This document shows, in pieces, positions 16,037 to 63,753 of a stretch of DNA of 64,000 nt. The notes beneath the pieces were generated by a model. It was not told where the DNA came from, did no database searches, and saw only the letters and a program-made list of their open reading frames with translations. Location: the IMG/VR virus record IMGVR_UViG_3300025138_000013. One strand, written 5' to 3'. The stretch comes from a virus. A program made the translations under genes and the position numbers. How positions within the stretch are numbered: position 1 is the stretch's first letter; each line of letters opens with the position of its first letter.

Positions 16037-17527
16037 ATGGCAACAGGTTCACAAAAGGTCAAAACACCAGCAGGTTGGAATTCAACTCAAGGTGCATGGG
16101 TAAAAACAGCTAGTTCCACATGGAAAGCAGTTGACCAAATCTATATTAAAACTCCTACAGGATGGAATAATGCGTCAGGGCAGACTGCAACTCAAGTTCC
16201 TTACCCATACATTGCAAATGGACAAGAACCCAATATAAGAAACAAACAGAATCCGTATCCTTATATTGCAAATGCACAAGAGCCTAACATAAGGAACAAA
16301 CAGAATCCTTATCCATACATTGCAAATGCACAAGAACCTAATATAAGAAGCCAACAACAACCGTATCCTTATATAGCACAAGCAAGACAACCTAGTACAT
16401 ACCAACATAGAAGTCCATTTACATATAGTAATGTTGGTCAACAACCTACTACTTATCAACATAGGTCACCGTTCACTTATAGGAATCCTGTAAATGCACA
16501 AGAGCCTAATATAAGGAATGCACAAACACCGTTCACTTACAGAAATCCAGTGAATGGACAAGAACCTAATATTAGAGATGCAAGACAGCCTGCAACTTAT
16601 CAACATAGGTCTCCTTTAACATACTCACATAGGTCACCATTTACCTATCAACATAGGTCTCCATTCACATATAGAAATCCAGTGAATGCACAAGAACCTA
16701 ATATTAGAAATGCAAGACAACCTTCTACGTATCAACATAGGTCACCGTTAACATATAGTCATAGAAGTCCTTTAACGTATACTCATAGGTCACCATTTAC
16801 ATATAGAAGTCCTGTATCTGCACAAGAGCCTAACATAAGAGAAGCAAGACAACCTTCTACGTATCAACATAGAAGTCCTTTAACATATAGTCATAGGTCA
16901 CCGTCTATTTACCAACATAGGTCACCATTTACATATAGAAGTCCTGTATCTGCACAAGAACCTAATATTCGTTCTGCACAACAACCGTATCCTTATATTG
17001 CAGCTGCACAACAACCTAATATTCGTGCTGCACAACAACCTACTATTAAGAACCAACAGGAACCTAATATTAGAAATAATCAGGCACCATTTACGTACAA
17101 TCATAGGTCACCGTTCACTTATAGGAATCCTGTATCTGCACAACAACCTAATATTCGTTCTGCACAAGAACCTAATATTAGAAGTTCACAAACACCATTT
17201 ACATATAGTGCAAGGTATCCAGCGAATGCACAGCAACCTTTTACATTCCAAGCACCATTTACGTACAGGAACCCTACTAACGCAAGGCAACCTAACAGTG
17301 CAAGGAACCCATTCACATATAGACAACCTTATATAGCGAATGGAAGACAACCAAATAGTGCAAGGAACCCATTCACATATAGAGTACCGTACATTGCAAA
17401 CGCAAGAACTGGAACACCCGCTAGGTCACCAAGTATTGCACAACAACCCTCAACGTACCAGCACAGAAGTCCATTTACATACTACTTTGCTTACGGTGGC
17501 GGAGGGCAGAATTTTTATGAACCATAA
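16037..17527 (+). CDS. Modular repeat protein 'A' (47 modules, aa 53-476)
   Basis: N-terminal WVKTASSTWKAVDQIYIKTPTGW motif then 424 aa of even-length x-x-P modules. Confidence 0.85.
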   Translation: MATGSQKVKTPAGWNSTQGAWVKTASSTWKAVDQIYIKTPTGWNNASGQTATQVPYPYIANGQEPNIRNKQNPYPYIANAQEPNIRNKQNPYPYIANAQEPNIRSQQQPYPYIAQARQPSTYQHRSPFTYSNVGQQPTTYQHRSPFTYRNPVNAQEPNIRNAQTPFTYRNPVNGQEPNIRDARQPATYQHRSPLTYSHRSPFTYQHRSPFTYRNPVNAQEPNIRNARQPSTYQHRSPLTYSHRSPLTYTHRSPFTYRSPVSAQEPNIREARQPSTYQHRSPLTYSHRSPSIYQHRSPFTYRSPVSAQEPNIRSAQQPYPYIAAAQQPNIRAAQQPTIKNQQEPNIRNNQAPFTYNHRSPFTYRNPVSAQQPNIRSAQEPNIRSSQTPFTYSARYPANAQQPFTFQAPFTYRNPTNARQPNSARNPFTYRQPYIANGRQPNSARNPFTYRVPYIANARTGTPARSPSIAQQPSTYQHRSPFTYYFAYGGGGQNFYEP

Positions 17528-17578
17528 GCTGATGATACATATGAATAGTAATATAAAATTTAACAGGAATAATCTAAG

Positions 17579-18937
17579 ATGCCTATAGGTAATAGACAGC
17601 AACCCGCTAGCAGATTTGCTCAAACATCTGTCAATGTACAGACGCCTTCGATTGTGCAACAACCGTTTACATATAGTGCAAGATATCCAGCGAATGCACA
17701 GCAACCTTTTACATTCCAAGCACCATTTACGTATAATGCTAGATATCCAGCGAATGCACAACAACCGTTCACATTCCAAGCACCATTTACGTATAGGAAC
17801 CCTACTAACGCAAGACAACCAAATAGTGCAAGGAACCCATTTACATATAGACAACCGTACATTGCAAATGCAAGGCAACCTAATTCATACCAACATAGGT
17901 CACCATTTACGTACAGTTATGGGTCTCCATTTACATATAGGGTTCCTGTATCTGCACAAGAACCTAATATTCGTTCTGCAAGACAACCGAGTTCATATCA
18001 ACATAGAAGTCCTTTGACGTATTCACACAGGTCACCGTTTACGTATAGTCATAGGTCACCATTTACGTATGCTAGGCAAGGTCAAACACCGTTTACTTAT
18101 AATCATAGGTCACCATTCACTTACAGAAATCCAGTAAATGCACAAGAACCTAATATTAGAAGCAATCAGCAACCTAACATTAGAAGTCAACAAGAACCTA
18201 ATATTAGAAATGCACAAGCAGCGTTTACATATAACCATAGAAGTCCGTTCACTTATAGGAATCCTGTATCTGCACAAGAGCCTAATATTAGAAACCAACA
18301 AGAACCTAATATAAGAAATCAGCAAGAACCTAATATTAGAAACAATCAAGCACCATTTACGTACAATCATAGGTCACCGTCTACTTATCAGAATCCTAGT
18401 AATGCACAGGAACCTAATATTCGTTCTGCACAACAACCTAATATTAGAAGTCAACAAGAGCCTAATATTAGAAACAATCAGACACCGTTTACGTATAGTC
18501 ATAGGTCACCGTTTACTTATCAGAATCCTAGTAATGCACGTCAACCTTCTACGTATCAACATAGGTCGCCGTTCACTTATAGGAATCCTGTAAATGCACA
18601 AGAGCCTAATATTAGAAACAGAGATACTACATTCCCTTACATCGCAGTAGCCCAAGAACCTAATATAAGGAATGCACAAACACCGTTCACATATCAAAGA
18701 ACTGGTCAGTCACCTGTAATATATTCTCACAGGTCACCATTTACGTATGCTAGACAAGGTCAAACACCAACGACTTATAACCATAGAAGTCCGTTCACGT
18801 ATCAAAGAACTGGTCAAACACCAACGACTTATCAACATAGAAGTCCGTTTACATATAATAGAACTGGTCAAACGCCTGAAGCAAGATGGGATGGAGTGGT
18901 ATCACAACAGTGGCCTGCAACACCAATTACGTCATAG
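17579..18937 (+). CDS. Modular repeat protein 'B' (47 modules, aa 7-430), mirror-complement partner of 16037-17527
   Basis: AGGA SD-like motif upstream; 424 aa repeat region. Confidence 0.85.
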   Translation: MPIGNRQQPASRFAQTSVNVQTPSIVQQPFTYSARYPANAQQPFTFQAPFTYNARYPANAQQPFTFQAPFTYRNPTNARQPNSARNPFTYRQPYIANARQPNSYQHRSPFTYSYGSPFTYRVPVSAQEPNIRSARQPSSYQHRSPLTYSHRSPFTYSHRSPFTYARQGQTPFTYNHRSPFTYRNPVNAQEPNIRSNQQPNIRSQQEPNIRNAQAAFTYNHRSPFTYRNPVSAQEPNIRNQQEPNIRNQQEPNIRNNQAPFTYNHRSPSTYQNPSNAQEPNIRSAQQPNIRSQQEPNIRNNQTPFTYSHRSPFTYQNPSNARQPSTYQHRSPFTYRNPVNAQEPNIRNRDTTFPYIAVAQEPNIRNAQTPFTYQRTGQSPVIYSHRSPFTYARQGQTPTTYNHRSPFTYQRTGQTPTTYQHRSPFTYNRTGQTPEARWDGVVSQQWPATPITS

Positions 18938-18960
18938 GAACCTACCCGACAGTGAACAAA

Positions 18961-18986
18961 GACCCCTCGAAAGAGGGGTTTTTTTT
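18961..18986 (+). terminator. Rho-independent terminator (GAAA loop)
   Basis: ACCCCTC-GAAA-GAGGGGT + T run. Confidence 0.9.
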
Positions 18987-19023
18987 ATCTTACTAAATAT
19001 AGGACAGATATTATGGAGACATC

Positions 19024-20601
19024 ATGCAGAAAATTGAAACCCTAGAACAAGCAAAAGAATTAATAAAACCTTACGACCCTAAGATAACCTCACAAGAGAG
19101 ACAGGCCATAGGCAATTTTCATCTAGGTGCATTTAATATAGAACCAGGCTATTCAAAAACCTCAGAAAGTTATAAAATACTTGAATGGATGTTTGAAGAA
19201 ATTTTACCACCAGTAAAGATTGCAAAGTGGAAAGACTTTGAATATCTAAGAAAGGAAAATAGATTTGGTGGGTTCAATGGGTTAAGAAATGAGTCAGTAA
19301 CATATCATAAATTTTTACCAGTCGGTTATGCAGAGAAACCTAGAAAACCTATTCCAGGCGTAGCAGGTATGGACATGAAAGATTCCGATGGATATGTTAA
19401 TATAGATACATTAATTGATTGGGACTCAGTTGAAAACAGAGACGAACATGCAGAAGGGTCACTATTGTCTATGTACTATCACGGTGCAAAAGCACATTGG
19501 TTAATTCAAAGTATTCAAGAGGAAGGTTTAAGAGCTCCTATTCAAGGGTATGTTGTAGATAATGGTTCCAGTGGTATGAGTACTGAATCTAGTTACACAT
19601 TTAGAATACACCCAGGCTCTATTCGTTCGGGTGTCTTTGAAGAGATGCAAGATAATGATATGGAAATTATGGTAATAGATAATTTTGATGTTGTGAAAGT
19701 GGAACCATCAAGCCTTGACAGCGTATTACAGATGTGGTATAATAAGTTACAAAGACTTAATAAACCATTTCATTGTTCATTTACATATGTAGATGGTTGT
19801 ATTGAATACAATACTGCATTAATGGACTTAGATTTTAGAGATGAAGTACATGCATTTAACAAACAAGTTTATGAACTTGCAAAAGGTAAACCTCTAACAA
19901 TCTATATCGGACATGATAGTAGACATGGAGATTTGTCTAAGCTTTCTAAGTTTGCAATCCTAGAAAGTATTAAAAGCGGATTTGGTAATGGATGGATGCA
20001 TGACCAAATCAGATGGCAACCCGAAGTTAAAATACTTGACATTGCTGAGATTCCCGAGTATACTAGAGAATATGCAAATCAAAGTACTGAATTTACATAC
20101 AGTAGATTCTTAATACCTTATCTAGAGAACTATGAAGGATTTAGTATCTTTATTGATGACGATTTCATCTTTAAGAAAAGTATATTACCTATGTTTTATT
20201 ACTTAAACCCTAATGATGCTGTTGCATGTATACAATATCCACAATACAAACATGATGAAACAAAGTTTGATGGTGAAGTTAATATAGATTACCCTAAGAA
20301 GCTTTGGTCTAGTATGATGGTATTCAATAATGGACATGAAGACTGTAAGAAGCTAACACCCGAAGTTGTTAACACTTGGACAGGAAAACAGCTACATCAA
20401 TTTGAGTGGACAGATAAAATCTCTAAAATACCCGAACATTATATCTTTGTAGAAGGATATGATAACCATGAAGAAAAGTACAACTACAGTGGTATACATT
20501 ATACACGTGGTGGCCCATGGGTAAAAGGGATGGATTATTCAACCATAAATAATCTTGAAGACTTTTTAAAAGTGAAAAGAACATTGCCAATTGGCGATTA
20601 G
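19024..20601 (+). CDS. Fusion: N-terminal ParB/Srx-like region + C-terminal GT-A (GT8/CDI-like) glycosyltransferase
   Basis: C-terminal IYIGHD, STEFTYSRFLIPYL, DDDF (DxD), YPKKLWSS, HYTRGGPW; N-terminal SIQEEGLRAPI..HPG..R; late-promoter variant ACTAAATA 18992-18999. Confidence 0.7.
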   Translation: MQKIETLEQAKELIKPYDPKITSQERQAIGNFHLGAFNIEPGYSKTSESYKILEWMFEEILPPVKIAKWKDFEYLRKENRFGGFNGLRNESVTYHKFLPVGYAEKPRKPIPGVAGMDMKDSDGYVNIDTLIDWDSVENRDEHAEGSLLSMYYHGAKAHWLIQSIQEEGLRAPIQGYVVDNGSSGMSTESSYTFRIHPGSIRSGVFEEMQDNDMEIMVIDNFDVVKVEPSSLDSVLQMWYNKLQRLNKPFHCSFTYVDGCIEYNTALMDLDFRDEVHAFNKQVYELAKGKPLTIYIGHDSRHGDLSKLSKFAILESIKSGFGNGWMHDQIRWQPEVKILDIAEIPEYTREYANQSTEFTYSRFLIPYLENYEGFSIFIDDDFIFKKSILPMFYYLNPNDAVACIQYPQYKHDETKFDGEVNIDYPKKLWSSMMVFNNGHEDCKKLTPEVVNTWTGKQLHQFEWTDKISKIPEHYIFVEGYDNHEEKYNYSGIHYTRGGPWVKGMDYSTINNLEDFLKVKRTLPIGD

Positions 20602-20612
20602 TATGATATAAT
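20584..20612 (+). promoter_or_regulatory. sigma70-type promoter
   Basis: TTGCCA-17 nt-TATAAT with extended -10 TG. Confidence 0.55.
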
Positions 20613-20631
20613 ATTACCGAGGAACTAAATT

Positions 20632-21189
20632 ATGAACGCATTTATATACGACAGTGAGGGAACTTTATTCATCCGTAAACCAAACGGACTTGAATACAAT
20701 TACGATTCTGTAGACAAACCAGCTTTTGATTTCGATTTTGATGTTATCATTTATGATGATATAGAAGTTAAAATATTAAACTACGAAGATGGTCTAGACT
20801 TTGACCGTCAACAAAAAACTGCACTTACAAAAGAAGAGTGTGAAATGATTGAACAATATATTGAGAATAGTGAACCGCCTATAGGTCACAGTCTTAATGC
20901 ACAATACATAAACAATCTTTATAGAACAACTAAAGAATTCATCGACCAAGAATGTCAACAATATAACTTTGATAGTTTATCTGAAGTTACATATGCTGGT
21001 AGGGAAGGTTCAAATCATCCACATAGAAATAATGCTCGAAGAGCAATGGAGTTTGCAGATGCAGTTAATTCTGTTCTAGACCAACTAGTTCAAGAAATCC
21101 AATCTACTAGAGAAGACTTCTTAAAGGAATATGATTCTTATGAGAGTGAATTACCTAGTCCATATACGCCAGAAGATACTAGGCCATAG
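20632..21189 (+). CDS. Putative tail-fibre assembly chaperone-like protein
   Basis: ID...Q.Y.FDSL....YA.......A.....AD.V...L pattern resembles fibre assembly chaperones; located after fibre genes. Confidence 0.4.
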   Translation: MNAFIYDSEGTLFIRKPNGLEYNYDSVDKPAFDFDFDVIIYDDIEVKILNYEDGLDFDRQQKTALTKEECEMIEQYIENSEPPIGHSLNAQYINNLYRTTKEFIDQECQQYNFDSLSEVTYAGREGSNHPHRNNARRAMEFADAVNSVLDQLVQEIQSTREDFLKEYDSYESELPSPYTPEDTRP

Positions 21190-21192
21190 TCA

Positions 21193-21897
21193 ATGGATTT
21201 AAACGTTGAGTTAGAGTTCATCAAAGAACCTTTCCATATCAAAGATATGCCTTTGAAAAAAGTATACGTTTTAGACGATTACTTATCTACAACAATGCAT
21301 CATTGTATTGATGATAAAATAACTAGAAATGCTTTTTGGGGAAAAAGTAATCAAGTAAACTCAAACAGTCCTACAGGATTACCTCATCATAGTTTTTGGG
21401 GAGCAGGTTTCTTCAGAGGCCATGACCAAGAAATAGAACATGATATGGAACCCAAAAAAACATATCTTATGAGATGGTTTAATAGAAAGTTACAAACCGA
21501 CTTTGGATTTATGTGGGAGAGATTTCAATACTTTGGTTTGAATTCTCAGACTCAAGGACTAGAGGGAACAACACATGCAGATTGTGAACCTCAAGATGAT
21601 TGGAATCTTTCATTTTTATATTATCCAAATAAATTTTGGAATGATTCTTGGGGGGGTTCTTTAAGAATGTATGATAAAATGCAACAAGGAATACACGGAA
21701 GAGCAGACCATATTAAAAATCATCAAGTTGCAGAAGTGTATTTTAAACCTAATAGATTATTAATATTTGATGGAAGAATACCACATGGTGCAGACGCACC
21801 CAAACCAGCTGCAAAGTATATGGATAGACGTTCTTTGGTTATAAGAGGGGACGAAATTAGTCTAAGGACTTTATGGGGTGAAGATGCCTACGATTGA
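21193..21897 (+). CDS. 2OG-Fe(II) oxygenase (prolyl-hydroxylase-like)
   Basis: H-x-D (THAD), W...WGG.L, PNRL.IFDG.IPH, terminal R. Confidence 0.85.
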   Translation: MDLNVELEFIKEPFHIKDMPLKKVYVLDDYLSTTMHHCIDDKITRNAFWGKSNQVNSNSPTGLPHHSFWGAGFFRGHDQEIEHDMEPKKTYLMRWFNRKLQTDFGFMWERFQYFGLNSQTQGLEGTTHADCEPQDDWNLSFLYYPNKFWNDSWGGSLRMYDKMQQGIHGRADHIKNHQVAEVYFKPNRLLIFDGRIPHGADAPKPAAKYMDRRSLVIRGDEISLRTLWGEDAYD

Positions 21898-22783
21898 ATT
21901 TACATGTTATGATAAAGAAACCACAGAGAATTGGAAACCAGTTCTAGCAAAGAAACTAGTTCCCGATTGGTGGAAGACTATGAAAGTTCAAGAGAATGTT
22001 CGTGGTCATAAAACTCAGACTATAAGGTCATGTCCTGCTATGGATGACTGGTTAAAGACTGGGTGGTATCTTTGTGCAAAGAAAGACATGAAAGTATTTG
22101 TAAGTGAACATTCTAGTAAATCAAGAACAGACCCACAAGACAGACTTTCATCACCAACACATCCAGCTGGACAAGCAGGTCATCAATTTACTTACTTATC
22201 TAAAGAAGATGCACCAACAAAAGATGCATTCAAAATGAAAGCACCATGGAATATTATTACTCCGCCAGGCTATTCTTGTCTATACCTAGACCCCTTTCTA
22301 TTTCAAAATAAGTATTTTGCAACATGGCAAGGTATGATTGATACAGATGCATTTAATGTGAATATGGATAACTCTCAGATTATTTTCTATCCTAAAACGA
22401 ATAAAGACTTTACAATTAAAGCTGGAACACCATTGGTTCAAATCATTCCATACAGAAGAGAAGATTGGACAGCATCATATATAACTTATGACAATAAATC
22501 GTGGCAAGAAAATAGGTCAGTTAGAACTACTCATAGAGTAGGTGAAGATGGTGGTAAGTTAAAAACAATGGATGAGTGGAATAGGTCACCCGAACTTAGA
22601 GAAGAGAAGAGGCATATCGAAGGAATGGCAGGTGCCTATAGAAGAATTAAGTATTGGAATGAGAAGGGAAGAATGTTTAAAGAAGAGAATCCACCACCCG
22701 AGTGTCCTATGCATAATCCCGATTTAGTAGAACATAAAGCAGAAGTGCAGTTGGATTTATTTGGAGACCAAGATGACAGTTAG
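21884..22783 (+). CDS. Conserved phage protein often beside 2OG oxygenases (DUF6065-like)
   Basis: T...CP...D....G, PW.I.TPPGYS, G.IDTD, I.AGTPL.Q.IP motifs. Confidence 0.55.
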   Translation: MPTIEFTCYDKETTENWKPVLAKKLVPDWWKTMKVQENVRGHKTQTIRSCPAMDDWLKTGWYLCAKKDMKVFVSEHSSKSRTDPQDRLSSPTHPAGQAGHQFTYLSKEDAPTKDAFKMKAPWNIITPPGYSCLYLDPFLFQNKYFATWQGMIDTDAFNVNMDNSQIIFYPKTNKDFTIKAGTPLVQIIPYRREDWTASYITYDNKSWQENRSVRTTHRVGEDGGKLKTMDEWNRSPELREEKRHIEGMAGAYRRIKYWNEKGRMFKEENPPPECPMHNPDLVEHKAEVQLDLFGDQDDS

Positions 22784-23480
22784 ATTAGCATTCCCTACAT
22801 TTATATTTGAAAGAGATGTACTTGACAAAAAGTATGGTAATGCTTCAGTATCAAAAGAATACTTAACATCCCTTAAGAATGAGATGGATGCATGGAGACA
22901 AAGAGACCCAAAAGGTAGACAAATATCAAACAGATATACTGGTTGGCAGTCTCAAGATGGTGTAGAAAAACATCCAGCCTTTCAAAAGATTATTAGATGT
23001 ATTGAAGCTGCATTGAGAGATGAAGTGCAACAATTCTTTAGAGTTCATCCCGACGATTCACAAATCAAAATAGATAATACATGGGCAAACATAAATGATA
23101 AAGGTGCATGGAATACACCACATTTACACAATGGTTGTTGGTATAGTGGAGTCTTTTACGTACATGGAGACGGTGATGAAGGTAACCTTCAACTAATCAA
23201 TACAGACCCGAAGGTAGTTGCAGACCATCCTACTAACGCTAGAATGCACGAGAGTATGGGATATGGGCCTGTTACTGGAAGACTTATAATGTTTCCTAGT
23301 GGTGCAATGCATATGGTAGAACCCAATCCTACAGACAAAGAAAGATACTCAATTTCATTCAATTGTAGAGTACAACAAATAACAAATAGTCGTGAAAGAA
23401 GAGACCCTCAAGGGAATCCACCTCATGAGAATGAATTTACTTTTGAATTAGATGAATTAGGCAACCCCACACTGAACTAA
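22773..23480 (+). CDS. 2OG-Fe(II) oxygenase, TIGR02466-like
   Basis: WANIN..G..N.PHLH, SGVFYV, FPS...H.V.PN, R.SISFN; SD GGAG. Confidence 0.85.
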   Translation: MTVRLAFPTFIFERDVLDKKYGNASVSKEYLTSLKNEMDAWRQRDPKGRQISNRYTGWQSQDGVEKHPAFQKIIRCIEAALRDEVQQFFRVHPDDSQIKIDNTWANINDKGAWNTPHLHNGCWYSGVFYVHGDGDEGNLQLINTDPKVVADHPTNARMHESMGYGPVTGRLIMFPSGAMHMVEPNPTDKERYSISFNCRVQQITNSRERRDPQGNPPHENEFTFELDELGNPTLN

Positions 23481-61090: not shown

Positions 61091-61894
61091 ATGAAAAGAA
61101 TTTTATCATTATTAATAATGCTTCCCTTGTTAGTCATTGCAGATGATGACAACAAGGTTGATGTTAACACTACTGGGAGTCAGTCTAATGATTCCCTAGT
61201 GTTTAATCTAACACAAATAGGTTATAACAACGATACCGTCTTTACAATCGGTGGTTCCAATAACACATTTCTAATTAAACAAGAAGGAAACAACAACGAG
61301 ATTTCCTTCGTAGATTACTTTGGTTCGGGAGAAACTTGGGGTGGAGACCTCGATGGTAATAACAATGCATTACACTTCGAACAAAATTGTACTCGTGGTT
61401 CCAGTTGTGGTAAATCTGATATAGGATTTCACATTCAAGGAGATGGTAACTCAGTTCGATGGGGTCAAGGAAAGGTTCTATCAAACGCTTCAGATGAGAC
61501 ATTTTCACTCGATTCGGATGAGGGTGGTAATCATAAACTAAACCTAGACATTCACGGTAATAATAATTCAGTCGCAGGGTTTCAAAGAAATGGTGCTCAA
61601 AATCAATACTCAGGTCACACTGCAACCTTATACATCTATGCAAATGACAATTCACTTTGGGTGAAACAAGAGAATGATGGTGCAAAGACTTTAAACTACA
61701 TTAGTAGAACAGATGATAATACAGGACATATAGTTCAAATGGGTAGTGGGAGTCACACTTCAACCATAAATCTCACTGGTACATACCCATCAACTTTAAA
61801 TTTATTGCAAAACTCAAGTACAAATCAATCATATACACTCACACAAAACTGCGTTACAGTAGGTGGATGTAGTGTTACAATAACTCAAGAGTAA
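61091..61894 (+). CDS. Secreted curlin-like repeat protein 2
   Basis: Signal peptide; Q.G.NN / G..N repeats; C-terminal C...GC...TQ. Confidence 0.7.
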   Translation: MKRILSLLIMLPLLVIADDDNKVDVNTTGSQSNDSLVFNLTQIGYNNDTVFTIGGSNNTFLIKQEGNNNEISFVDYFGSGETWGGDLDGNNNALHFEQNCTRGSSCGKSDIGFHIQGDGNSVRWGQGKVLSNASDETFSLDSDEGGNHKLNLDIHGNNNSVAGFQRNGAQNQYSGHTATLYIYANDNSLWVKQENDGAKTLNYISRTDDNTGHIVQMGSGSHTSTINLTGTYPSTLNLLQNSSTNQSYTLTQNCVTVGGCSVTITQE

Positions 61895-63753
61895 TGTACT
61901 CTTGGAAAGCGTGTCTTGTTACGATACTTGCCCTCTTTGCATTAAAGGTTACTAATCCTTATTTCATAGAGAACATATCTTGGACATGGTTCGATTACTT
62001 ACATCAACAACAAGGAGAATTTTATGTGGATGACATCGTTCTTGTCGACATCGACGAGAAGTCTCTTGAAACTTTTGGACAATATCCTATACGTCGTGGT
62101 ATTTACCGTGACCTTCTTCTTGATACCCATTATAGCAATACTCATATTTTTGGTATGTTATTTTCTAAACCCGACAGAGACCCCACACAAGACGCGATAT
62201 TTGCAGAGGGATTAGTCAACCGTCTCACAATCCTTGGAGCTGCTCCAACATCACAAACTCAAAAAGGTTCTGCACCATTCGTAGGTAACTCAACGTTTGG
62301 GGGTGGTAATCCTAAAGATTTTCTGTGGAACTTCGATGGAATTGTATCGCCCATCGCGATGCTGAAAGATAATACTTATGGGGTTGGAGTTGTGACGGCT
62401 ACTCCAGCTGTCACTGGAACACCAAATTTTGATGGGACTACGCGGTCTGTACCCCTATTGGTTACGGCAAACGATGAAGTATATCCCTCACTAATGTTAG
62501 AAGCTTTACGAGCCTTACGTAACGAACCAAGTTATCAAACTAAAATTACTCCCGAGACTGGTGTAGAGTGGGTTCGGATGGGAAGAGACAAACCGATAAC
62601 CACCACTCCAACCAGTGATGTAATGATATCCTATTGGAACAAATTCCATAGAATTTCTGCAGTAGACTTACCCGATTCTAATTTCGAGAATAAAATACTT
62701 GTATGGGGTTTGACTGCAGAGGGTTTGAATAATCCAGTTTCAACCCCAAGGGGAGTAATGTATCCCCATGAAGTGCAAGCGAACCTGCTCCAAACCGTTT
62801 TGACAGGAGTTCAAATACAACAATCCTACTATCTTGAATCACTAGAGTCTGTTCTTCTTCTGTTAGTTCTGCTAATGATAGTTGCGATGGTTTACAAGCT
62901 TCCCACAGTTCTTTCGGGGACAGGGTTTCTATTACTTGTAGTATGCCAGATTGGCGGGAGTTATTATATTTGGACTTCAGAGCTCGTTCTTTTCGATACC
63001 TTCTTTTCATCGTTGGCCTCCTTAGTAGTTTTCGGTCATGCTTCGTTCAACAAATACTATGTGACTTTCCAAGAAAAGCAACAAATAAAGAAGCAGTTCC
63101 AAAAGTATTTATCTCCCGACATGATTGAAGAGCTACAAAAACACCCCGAAAAATTGAGACTTGGTGGAGATAGAAAGGAGATGACCTTCATGTTTATGGA
63201 CATCATCGGATTCACTCCTATAAGCGAACATTACATGAAACAGGATGACCCCGAAGGATTAGTAGAATTGATTAACAAATTCCTTGATATGCAGACTAAG
63301 ATAATCCTAAATAATGGTGGAACCATCGACAAGTACATGGGCGATTGTATAATGAGTTTTTGGAATGCTCCTATGGAGTGTAAGAACCATGCAGACCTTG
63401 CCGTTAAATCAGCACTGGAAGTGCTAGAAGCAACAAAGGAATTAAATGAAGAACTTAAACCTCTCGAACTGCCTCCTATTAATGTTGGGATTGGTATCTC
63501 TACAGGCGAATGCATCGTTGGAAACATGGGGTCAGAACTTAGATTTGACTATTCCGTCATTGGAGATGCAGTTAACCTCGGAGCTAGACTCGAAGGACAA
63601 ACGAGAAATTATGATGGGGTGGACTTGTTGTTATCACAAAGAACTTATAAACAGTGTAAGGTTGGAGCATACATTGAAGTCGATAGAATACACGTCAAGG
63701 GGAAAAGTGAAAAGGTCACTATCTACACTCCAATTAAAGGAACCCATAACTGA
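61894..63753 (+). CDS. CHASE2-domain class III adenylate/guanylate cyclase
   Basis: IVLVDIDE.SL...G.YP (CHASE2), TM helices, F.DI.GFT, DKY.GDCIM, GIGI.TG...GNMGS..RFDY.VIGD.VNL.ARLE. Confidence 0.93.
   Translation: MYSWKACLVTILALFALKVTNPYFIENISWTWFDYLHQQQGEFYVDDIVLVDIDEKSLETFGQYPIRRGIYRDLLLDTHYSNTHIFGMLFSKPDRDPTQDAIFAEGLVNRLTILGAAPTSQTQKGSAPFVGNSTFGGGNPKDFLWNFDGIVSPIAMLKDNTYGVGVVTATPAVTGTPNFDGTTRSVPLLVTANDEVYPSLMLEALRALRNEPSYQTKITPETGVEWVRMGRDKPITTTPTSDVMISYWNKFHRISAVDLPDSNFENKILVWGLTAEGLNNPVSTPRGVMYPHEVQANLLQTVLTGVQIQQSYYLESLESVLLLLVLLMIVAMVYKLPTVLSGTGFLLLVVCQIGGSYYIWTSELVLFDTFFSSLASLVVFGHASFNKYYVTFQEKQQIKKQFQKYLSPDMIEELQKHPEKLRLGGDRKEMTFMFMDIIGFTPISEHYMKQDDPEGLVELINKFLDMQTKIILNNGGTIDKYMGDCIMSFWNAPMECKNHADLAVKSALEVLEATKELNEELKPLELPPINVGIGISTGECIVGNMGSELRFDYSVIGDAVNLGARLEGQTRNYDGVDLLLSQRTYKQCKVGAYIEVDRIHVKGKSEKVTIYTPIKGTHN

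What the first reader, a model, noticed from the sequence alone, without database searches (positions are those of the whole stretch)
16193..18868. The code reduces to a binary alphabet in three lengths, with a second layer of junction covariation that fixes the register
Seen in sequence: V splits into RSPFTY+RNPVNA (F-like + S-like), which explains why it is self-complementary. Y splits into H-like(8)+S-like(6) and X into F-like(6)+N-like(8), which are mutual reverse complements. So a 'P-x-T-Y' module always faces a non-TY module of equal length (6, 8 or 10). At junctions, H|RSP faces x|QEP or x|QQP, a plausible R/H-E salt bridge. Every junction starting RQP between the modules as parsed faces Q-[T/A/S]-[P/A] on the partner (10 of 10 in A/B, 6 of 6 in C/D), including cases where the RQP switches chain. 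Inference: residue-level cross-strand contacts, giving a potentially programmable peptide pairing system.
Basis: partly seen in the sequence, partly recalled or inferred. Interest (0 to 1): 0.78.

Follow-up and report, generated by a model that had tools for sequence, protein, structure and literature searches.

The report
Mirror-coded two-protein phage fibre duplex
Two pairs of neighbouring genes in a marine T4-like phage encode proline-punctuated repeat proteins that are exact "reverse complements" of each other, module by module and largely residue by residue. This points to long two-chain zipper-like fibres built on a readable pairing code that I could not find described anywhere.

Summary
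Observation confirmed and extended. Proteins A (16037-17527) and B (17579-18937), and a second pair C/D (5323-8240), are chains of 6-, 8- or 10-residue modules that each start [R/Q]-x-P. With one partner read backwards, 53 (A/B) and 40 (C/D) consecutive modules match in length and are of opposite type. Shuffled controls give at most 9. There is no indel over 420 and 314 residues.

About 40 related gene pairs from viral metagenomes, 209-585 aa long, keep the rule, and changes in one chain are matched by changes at the exactly facing position of the other. Nine relatives carry both arms in one chain at the C/D locus.

The junction rule also holds: 151 of 154 distinct N-to-T junctions pair an R-start with a Q-start, whatever the context on the same chain.

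New here:
- All prolines of a chain share one position parity.
- Facing-residue information peaks three residues away from the module-flush alignment (A i + B j = 486). There Pro faces Gln/Arg in about 95% of cases and aromatics face small residues.

Best reading: an antiparallel, in-register, beta-type heteroduplex that forms a fibre stalk. No structure prediction gave a usable answer, so physical pairing remains inferred. The scan has noted this family before on other DNA. I found no paper describing it.

The parts
16037..17527 (+). Gene A, 496 aa. N-terminal 52-aa head, about 58 modules, C-terminal aromatic/Gly4 tail.
   Evidence: ORF. Parse. Differences from relatives fall mostly at codon position 3. 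438 unnamed homologues.
16193..17473 (+). Paired zone of A (residues 53-479). Faces B residues 433-7 under the rule i + j = 486.
   Evidence: Best ungapped antiparallel segment, 666 bits with the pair matrix. Mutual information peaks at this antidiagonal.
17579..18937 (+). Gene B, 452 aa. About 58 modules from residue 1, Trp-rich 22-aa C-terminal tail.
17597..18877 (+). Paired zone of B (residues 7-433).
18958..18993 (+). Terminator-like GC hairpin plus T run, directly after B. A and B look like one transcription unit.
5323..7068 (+). Gene C, 581 aa. Repeat arm (residues 21-339, nt 5383-6339) followed by a non-repeat, probably all-beta C-terminal domain of about 236 aa (nt 6358-7065).
   Evidence: The AF2 model of the C-terminal domain has low confidence.
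7068..8240 (+). Gene D, 390 aa. Repeat arm (residues 14-332, nt 7107-8063) faces C under i + j = 353. C-terminal tail of about 55 aa with a K-V-K-G motif.
19024..23480 (+). Conserved downstream block: 525-aa protein with a weak GT8-like region, a 185-aa ORF, a 2OG-Fe(II) oxygenase (PF13640), a 301-aa ORF and a second 2OG-Fe(II) oxygenase (PF13759). Candidate modifying enzymes; any link to the fibre is only inferred.
   Evidence: Pfam. Same order after the A/B pair in 56-57 related loci.

Best explanation
A/B and C/D are each the two chains of a long, thin fibre stalk in the host-recognition gene cluster of a T4-like marine myophage.

The partners lie antiparallel and in one fixed register (A residue i opposite B residue 486-i; C residue i opposite D residue 353-i). 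Both are in an extended, beta-type conformation with a two-residue period.

Every module starts with a three-residue clamp, [R/Q]-x-P. The clamp lies directly over the partner's clamp, so each Pro is opposite an Arg or Gln. At N-to-T junctions one clamp starts with R and the other with Q.

Between clamps sit cores of 3, 5 or 7 residues. An aromatic-bearing core (F-T-Y...) always faces a small/polar core (...V-N-A, N-I-R-N-A, Y-P-Y-I-A-N-A): Phe opposite Ala, Thr opposite Asn, Tyr opposite Arg/Ala/Val/Gly.

The order of module lengths and types acts as a bar code that sets partner choice, register and stalk length (about 140 nm for A/B and 105 nm for C/D if fully extended).

Shown: the complementarity, its conservation, the compensatory changes, the proline phase, the best statistical register and the single-chain fold-back relatives.

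Inferred: physical pairing, beta structure, presence in the virion, oligomer state (a lone duplex or several duplexes bundled), and which end is the tip.
For: 1. Complementarity far beyond chance, with no indel over 420 and 314 residues.

2. Conservation: about 40 distinct related pairs with paired zones of 128-508 residues all lie on a single antidiagonal.

3. Compensatory changes at exactly facing positions:
- Against L014, A315-348 [n10 n8 n8 n8] becomes [t8 t8], and B135-168 [t8 t8 t8 t10] becomes [n8 n8].
- Against L014, the deletion of A385-398 faces the deletion of B85-98.
- L002 gains 88 aa in both chains, although the neighbouring gene is 95% identical.

4. Natural fusions: nine homologues with a C-like N-terminus and a D-like C-terminus have self-complementary arms of 104-144 residues. 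They score 117-210 bits against at most 60 for module shuffles. One of them sits at the C/D locus, after the VrlC-like gene.

5. Two-residue period: prolines are at one position parity in 63/63 (A), 55/56 (B), 42/42 (C) and 40/40 (D). In 120 homologues the spacing between [R/Q]-x-P starts is even in 3403 of 3442 cases, against 47% for shuffled sequences.

6. Register:
- Facing-residue mutual information peaks at shift +3 from the module-flush alignment: 1.81 bits in A/B, 1.72 in C/D and 1.53 in 28 independent relatives. An unbiased search over all offsets finds the same antidiagonal. Parallel or wrong-partner alignments reach at most 1.14 bits.
- Side-chain volume correlation is most negative at +3 in 41 of 41 pairs.
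- At +3 Pro faces Q/R in 181 of 192 cases (window) and 95% (relatives). Aromatics face A/R/V/G in 167 of 187 cases.

7. R/Q junction rule: 151 of 154 distinct junctions, including 5 of 5 with identical same-chain context on both chains.

8. No DNA-level inverted repeat. Differences from relatives are mostly synonymous.

9. Context: fibre-like genes flank the pairs in the host recognition cluster after a VrlC-like gene (PMC7029224).
Against: - No experimental or predicted structure supports the pairing. Everything rests on sequence statistics.
- A proline content of 13% is unusual for beta strands. It is tolerable only if every Pro sits at an outward-facing NH position, which is assumed, not shown.
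- The maxima in mutual information and volume complementarity identify the most informative alignment. That need not be the physical hydrogen-bond register.
- Higher-order 44-residue repeats make many module pairs non-independent, so counts overstate the number of independent events.
- Three metagenomic pairs (L001 585/496 aa, L013 416/416, L017 497/540) are out of step by multiples of one 44-residue unit. This is either assembly collapse or real tolerance of mismatch.
- Some module pairs break the binary rule (N6 opposite N6 near one end; an N-type 10-mer that contains P-F-T-Y in relatives).
- No proteomic evidence places A-D in the virion.
Confidence: 0.65

Rival explanations
1. The chains do pair antiparallel, but the unit is not a lone two-stranded ribbon. 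Three A/B duplexes bundle into a six-stranded needle, like the out-and-back trimer of the T4 gp37 tip.
For: Phage fibres are almost always trimers, and the gp37 needle is an out-and-back trimer (PMC6957217). The single-chain fold-back relatives have the topology of one gp37 chain.
Against: There is no H-x-H motif in A-D and no sequence match to any PDB chain. In a closed six-stranded arrangement every backbone NH is used, so a phase-locked Pro every 6-10 residues would cost hydrogen bonds. The strict single parity of Pro fits free outer edges better. The oligomer state was not testable here.
Confidence: 0.3
2. The chains pair antiparallel, but in a non-beta conformation (polyproline-II-like or irregular), as in the antigen I/II stalk where two different repeat regions wrap around each other.
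For: The sequences are rich in Pro and Gln and almost free of Leu, Met, Trp and Cys. All folding attempts gave very low confidence (Atlas pLDDT 0.34 for C; AF2 pLDDT 30 for a fold-back relative).
Against: A polyproline-II helix has a three-residue period. Here module lengths are 6, 8 and 10, and spacing is even in 98.9% of cases with 8 the commonest, which fits a two-residue period only. Shifts of odd and even parity differ systematically in mutual information.
Confidence: 0.12
3. A and B never touch. The mirror complementarity reflects some other constraint, for instance both chains lying on a common third periodic partner, or a disordered and heavily modified surface brush.
For: There is no direct evidence of binding. 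A glycosyltransferase-like gene and two 2OG oxygenase genes always follow the pair.
Against: A third partner would not require antiparallel complementarity, compensatory changes at exactly facing positions, residue-level pairing rules that do not depend on which chain carries the module, or single-chain versions with both arms.
Confidence: 0.06
4. The pattern is an artefact of how the repeats were parsed, or of chance among low-complexity repeats.
For: The parser was tuned on this window, and tandem duplication inflates counts.
Against: A parse-free search over all offsets with plain residue mutual information finds the same antidiagonals. Shuffles give runs of at most 9 against 53 and 40. The rule holds in about 40 independent pairs of different length.
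Confidence: 0.01

Closest known systems
Needle (domains D10-D11) of the T4 long-tail-fibre tip, gp37 (PDB 2XGF; PMC6957217)
   Same: A long thin phage fibre in which polypeptide runs out to a tip and back, so that antiparallel stretches of equal length face each other. Located in the host-recognition apparatus of a T4-type phage. The single-chain relatives found here have that out-and-back topology.
   Different: gp37 is one gene product and a homotrimer. Its core is held by seven iron ions bound to His residues. It is not proline-punctuated and has no two-type, three-length module code. Here the two arms are separate genes, there is no H-x-H motif and there is no detectable sequence similarity.
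Streptococcal antigen I/II stalk (Ala-rich repeats paired with Pro-rich repeats; from my own knowledge, also named in scan note e1-5703444)
   Same: Two different repeat arrays of matched length associate antiparallel to form a very long narrow stalk that presents a head domain.
   Different: There one arm is an alpha helix and the other a polyproline-II helix, both in one chain, with long repeats (about 82 and 39 residues). Here both arms use the same module grammar, the period is two residues, and the arms are usually separate proteins.
Heterodimeric coiled coils and designed orthogonal coiled-coil sets (from my own knowledge)
   Same: Partner choice and register can be read from a simple repeat code, and the system is length-tunable and potentially programmable.
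   Different: Alpha-helical heptads, usually parallel. Such helices are incompatible with 13% proline.
Triple beta-spiral shafts of adenovirus fibre and reovirus sigma1 (from my own knowledge)
   Same: Viral fibre shafts built from short repeats with a conserved Pro/Gly and beta structure.
   Different: They are homotrimeric and parallel, with repeats of about 15 residues, and have no complementary partner chain.
Cross-strand pairing preferences in antiparallel beta sheets, such as aromatic residues opposite Gly (from my own knowledge)
   Same: At the best register aromatics face Ala/Gly/Val, and Thr faces Asn. This big-opposite-small logic resembles known cross-strand packing.
   Different: Those are local statistical preferences inside globular proteins. 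They are not a chain-long code shared by two gene products.

Membership tests
T4 gp37-type needle | Detectable sequence similarity to gp37 or to any solved fibre | tested here: not met
   phmmer of A against all PDB chains: 0 hits at E <= 10. No Pfam or PHROG family for A-D, apart from a borderline low-complexity Cementoin hit.
T4 gp37-type needle | His-x-His metal-binding motifs along the needle | tested here: not met
   0 H-x-H in A, B, C and D. His occurs singly, at the end of 8-residue T modules.
T4 gp37-type needle | One chain that runs out and back; homotrimer | tested here: inconclusive
   In the window the arms are two genes. Nine relatives have both arms in one chain. The oligomer state cannot be tested with these tools.
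Collagen-like / polyproline-II bundle fibres | Three-residue period (G-x-y triplets or Gly-rich PPII repeats) | tested here: not met
   No G-x-y-G-x-y runs. Spacing between module starts is 6, 8 or 10 and even in 98.9% of cases.
Triple beta-spiral shaft | Repeat of about 15 residues in a single homotrimeric chain | tested here: not met
   Modules are 6/8/10 residues with a higher-order unit of 44. The partner is a second gene product.
Coiled-coil heterodimer | Heptad repeats compatible with an alpha helix | tested here: not met
   Pro is 13% of residues, placed every 6-10 residues.
Mirror-coded two-chain phage fibre (class proposed by this scan, not in the literature) | Adjacent genes; antiparallel module complementarity on one antidiagonal; compensatory changes in relatives | tested here: met

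The most novel reading that the evidence does not exclude
This is a natural, sequence-readable pairing code for protein strands, analogous in logic to base pairing. A constant clamp ([R/Q]-x-P over P-x-[Q/R]) sets the register. Between clamps, cores of 3, 5 or 7 residues come in two complementary types. The order of lengths and types specifies the partner and the fibre length. The code evolves by matched insertions, deletions and type swaps in two genes, and can be split into two chains or fused into one. If physical pairing is confirmed, it would give a new class of programmable, orthogonal, length-defined beta-type protein duplexes.
Probability: 0.5. Interest if true: 0.92.

Novelty: categorically new. 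Interest (0 to 1): 0.83.

Why it matters
No general, readable code for heterospecific beta-strand pairing is known. Coiled coils fill that role for helices and underlie much of protein design. A natural system would give rules, and many test cases, for designing orthogonal protein zippers and rigid rods of set length. Here two chains of 300-500 residues specify each other position by position, with visible compensatory evolution in hundreds of environmental variants.

For phage biology it would define a new fibre architecture in the host-recognition cluster of abundant marine myophages. It would also explain how fibre length can change quickly without losing assembly.

Tried and rejected
Structure predictions (none informative):
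- Complex prediction on A99-218 with B265-384, using 5-row alignments, gave no verdict (ipSAE 0.00, partner pLDDT below 50). It counts neither for nor against binding.
- AF2 of the single-chain fold-back relative P0070 with a 10-row alignment gave pLDDT 30.
- AF2 of the C-terminal domain of C gave pLDDT 53 and an all-beta model. Foldseek against the PDB found nothing at E <= 0.001.

Searches that found nothing:
- Atlas search with the C-terminal part of C: no named family.
- PDB sequence search, Pfam and PHROGs: no family.
- megablast and tblastn against cultured phages: no real homologue.
- Search for fused forms longer than 868 aa: none. The fusions turned out to be of normal length.
- DNA inverted repeats that could explain the mirror symmetry: none.
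- Literature searches by motif and by concept: nothing relevant.

Analyses set aside:
- Position-by-position mutual information inside module classes, with and without stratifying on neighbouring modules, showed coupling between chains. It could not fix the register alone, because only some positions vary.
- The module-flush register (shift 0) was rejected. It puts the prolines of the two chains in opposite phase and gives lower mutual information.
- Shift +1, my first guess (module-first residues opposite each other, His opposite Glu), was rejected. It gives a positive volume correlation and lower mutual information than +3.
- A crude comparison of repeat-zone lengths measured separately in each chain was too noisy to use.
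Full report
**What is there.** The window is part of a T4-like myophage. It carries a T4-type terminase, tail sheath, gp20 portal, scaffold and gp23 capsid protein. Its capsid protein is 67% identical to that of Methylophilales phage Melnitz and 64% to Pelagibacter phage HTVC008M.

The finding covers two adjacent + strand genes: A (16037-17527, 496 aa) and B (17579-18937, 452 aa). A terminator-like hairpin follows them at 18958-18993. A second pair with the same motifs lies at 5323-7068 (C, 581 aa) and 7068-8240 (D, 390 aa), just downstream of a VrlC-like gene with DUF4815. This region is what Zaragoza-Solas et al. call the host recognition cluster of pelagimyophages (PMC7029224).

None of the four proteins has a Pfam, PHROG or PDB relative. 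Against relatives, most nucleotide differences are synonymous, so these reading frames are under purifying selection.

**The observation.** All four proteins are chains of modules that start [R/Q]-x-P and are 6, 8 or 10 residues long.

- Read forward, A is the length-matched, type-inverted mirror of B over 53 consecutive modules. C mirrors D over 40.
- Shuffling the partner's module order gives runs of at most 9.
- Parallel or same-type comparisons give runs of 4-8.
- The paired zones lie on one antidiagonal with no indel over 420 and 314 residues.
- There is no inverted repeat in the DNA, so the symmetry exists only in the proteins.

**Is it conserved?** A scan of viral contigs gave 68 loci with about 40 distinct adjacent pairs, 209-585 aa long. 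Every one has a long antiparallel complement on a single antidiagonal of 128-508 residues.

Close relatives show changes that match at exactly facing positions:

- In L014 the stretch A315-348 changes from [n10 n8 n8 n8] to [t8 t8]. The stretch facing it, B135-168, changes from [t8 t8 t8 t10] to [n8 n8].
- In L014 a deletion of A385-398 faces a deletion of B85-98.
- L002 has 88 extra residues in both chains, while its flanking gene is 95% identical to the window's.

Three contigs (L001, L013, L017) are out of step by one or two 44-residue units. I cannot tell repeat collapse in assembly from real variants.

**Natural fusions.** I built a pair-score matrix from the relatives and scanned the 120 best homologues of A against their own reverse. 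Nine proteins of 446-520 aa have two self-complementary arms of 104-144 residues, separated by 126-219 residues. They score 117-210 bits, against at most 60 for module shuffles.

Their N-termini resemble C and their C-termini resemble D. One of them sits at the same locus as C+D, after the VrlC-like gene. C/D therefore looks like a fold-back hairpin split at its tip. That places the non-repeat C-terminal domain of C at the tip, and the C N-terminus plus the D C-terminus at the base.

**Junction covariation.** Across the relatives there are 706 distinct junction contexts. At junctions where both chains pass from an N to a T module, 151 of 154 distinct cases pair an R-start with a Q-start. Mostly this is RQP with Q-[T/S/A/N]-P.

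Within one and the same same-chain context both letters occur, yet the partner is always the other letter. All five junctions with identical context on both chains are mixed R/Q. This is a real correlation between chains, not a grammar within one chain.

**Period and register.** Every proline of a chain sits at one position parity: 63/63, 55/56, 42/42 and 40/40. In 120 homologues the spacing of module starts is even in 98.9% of cases, against 47% in shuffles. That means a two-residue period, as in extended beta strands, and not the three-residue period of collagen or polyproline II.

The module-flush alignment puts the prolines of the two chains in opposite phase, so the true register must be shifted by an odd number. 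Two parse-free measures agree on +3:

- Mutual information between facing residues peaks there in A/B (1.81 bits), in C/D (1.72) and in 28 independent relatives (1.53, against 1.30 at +5, 1.14 at +1 and 0.98 at 0). An unbiased search over all offsets finds the same antidiagonal.
- Side-chain volumes are most anticorrelated there in 41 of 41 pairs.

In that register (A i + B j = 486; C i + D j = 353) the two clamp triplets lie exactly over each other:

- Pro faces Gln or Arg in 181 of 192 cases (95% in relatives).
- Phe faces Ala, Thr faces Asn, Tyr faces Arg/Ala/Val/Gly, His faces Asn and Ser faces Glu.

Each module thus resolves into a constant 3-residue clamp plus a core of 3, 5 or 7 residues in two complementary kinds. 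It replaces the proposed His/Arg-Glu salt bridge with other facing pairs.

**Mechanism, with its limits.** I read each pair as an antiparallel, in-register heteroduplex in extended beta-type conformation. All prolines would sit on one face, plausibly at outward-facing NH positions, where they cost no hydrogen bond and would block sideways aggregation. The sequence of lengths and types then works as a bar code for partner and register. Fully extended, the stalks would be about 140 nm (A/B) and 105 nm (C/D) long.

None of this is shown physically. The complex prediction returned no verdict, and two AF2 runs were of too low confidence to use. Whether one duplex stands alone or three bundle like the gp37 needle (PMC6957217) is open.

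**Comparison and novelty.** The closest known things are listed below. None has a two-gene, two-type, three-length complementary code.

- the out-and-back trimeric needle of T4 gp37
- the antiparallel two-repeat stalk of streptococcal antigen I/II
- heterodimeric coiled coils (similar in logic only)

Tests for gp37-type, collagen/PPII, beta-spiral and coiled-coil membership failed on their defining features. Seven literature searches found nothing similar.

The scan itself has reported the same family, and analogous ones, on other genomes. Those notes agree with what I tested here, but they are not independent evidence.

Noticed in passing
window 19024-23480; same order in L001-L065: In 56-57 related loci the A/B pair is followed by the same block: a 525-aa protein with a weak GT8-like region, a 185-aa ORF, a 2OG-Fe(II) oxygenase of the prolyl-hydroxylase-type family PF13640, a 301-aa ORF and a second 2OG-Fe(II) oxygenase (PF13759). 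These could hydroxylate or glycosylate the Pro/Thr/Tyr-rich fibre chains. That link is speculation.
   Followed up: partly
L041:5128-7158; homologues P0007, P0014, P0015 and others: Many A-type homologues end in a Gly run followed by a Hint/intein-like domain (PF14890, PF14623, PF01079), at the end of the duplex that lies next to the B N-terminus. The window's A ends in G-G-G-G plus six residues and has no Hint domain. L068's C-type protein may also end in a Hint-like domain, judged by eye from its C-terminal sequence only.
   Followed up: no
L001, L013, L017: In three metagenomic pairs the two genes are out of step by one or two 44-residue (132-nt) higher-order units. This is either collapse of the tandem repeat during short-read assembly or natural variants with an unpaired overhang or bulge.
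   Followed up: partly
window 61894-63753: A phage gene encodes a CHASE2 sensor domain fused to an adenylate/guanylate cyclase domain (Pfam E 1e-29 and 2e-17).
   Followed up: no
window 16037-16192 (A residues 1-52) and 8070-8237 (D C-terminus): By eye, the non-repeat ends at the presumed base of each duplex share a K-V-K ... W/G ... K ... (I/V)-Y-(I/V) motif. It is N-terminal in A but C-terminal in D, and it recurs in the C-termini of the single-chain relatives. It may be the attachment element.
   Followed up: no
window 16037-18937, minus strand: The codons for P-N-I-R in the 8-residue N modules are nearly palindromic (CCT AAT ATT AGA). The antisense frame therefore also reads N-I-R, which produces spurious repeat ORFs on the minus strand.
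   Followed up: no
window 16487-16567 (A residues 151-177): Borderline Pfam hit to Cementoin, the Gln/Lys-rich transglutaminase-substrate repeat of trappins (27.4 bits against a cut-off of 27). It is most likely a low-complexity coincidence. B has no Lys at all.
   Followed up: no
window A/C and B/D: A and D share a run of 17 identical modules, as do B and C, so they are partial paralogues. A is therefore also complementary to C over 17 modules, and B to D. The two duplexes of one phage are not fully orthogonal over their central 44-residue units.
   Followed up: partly
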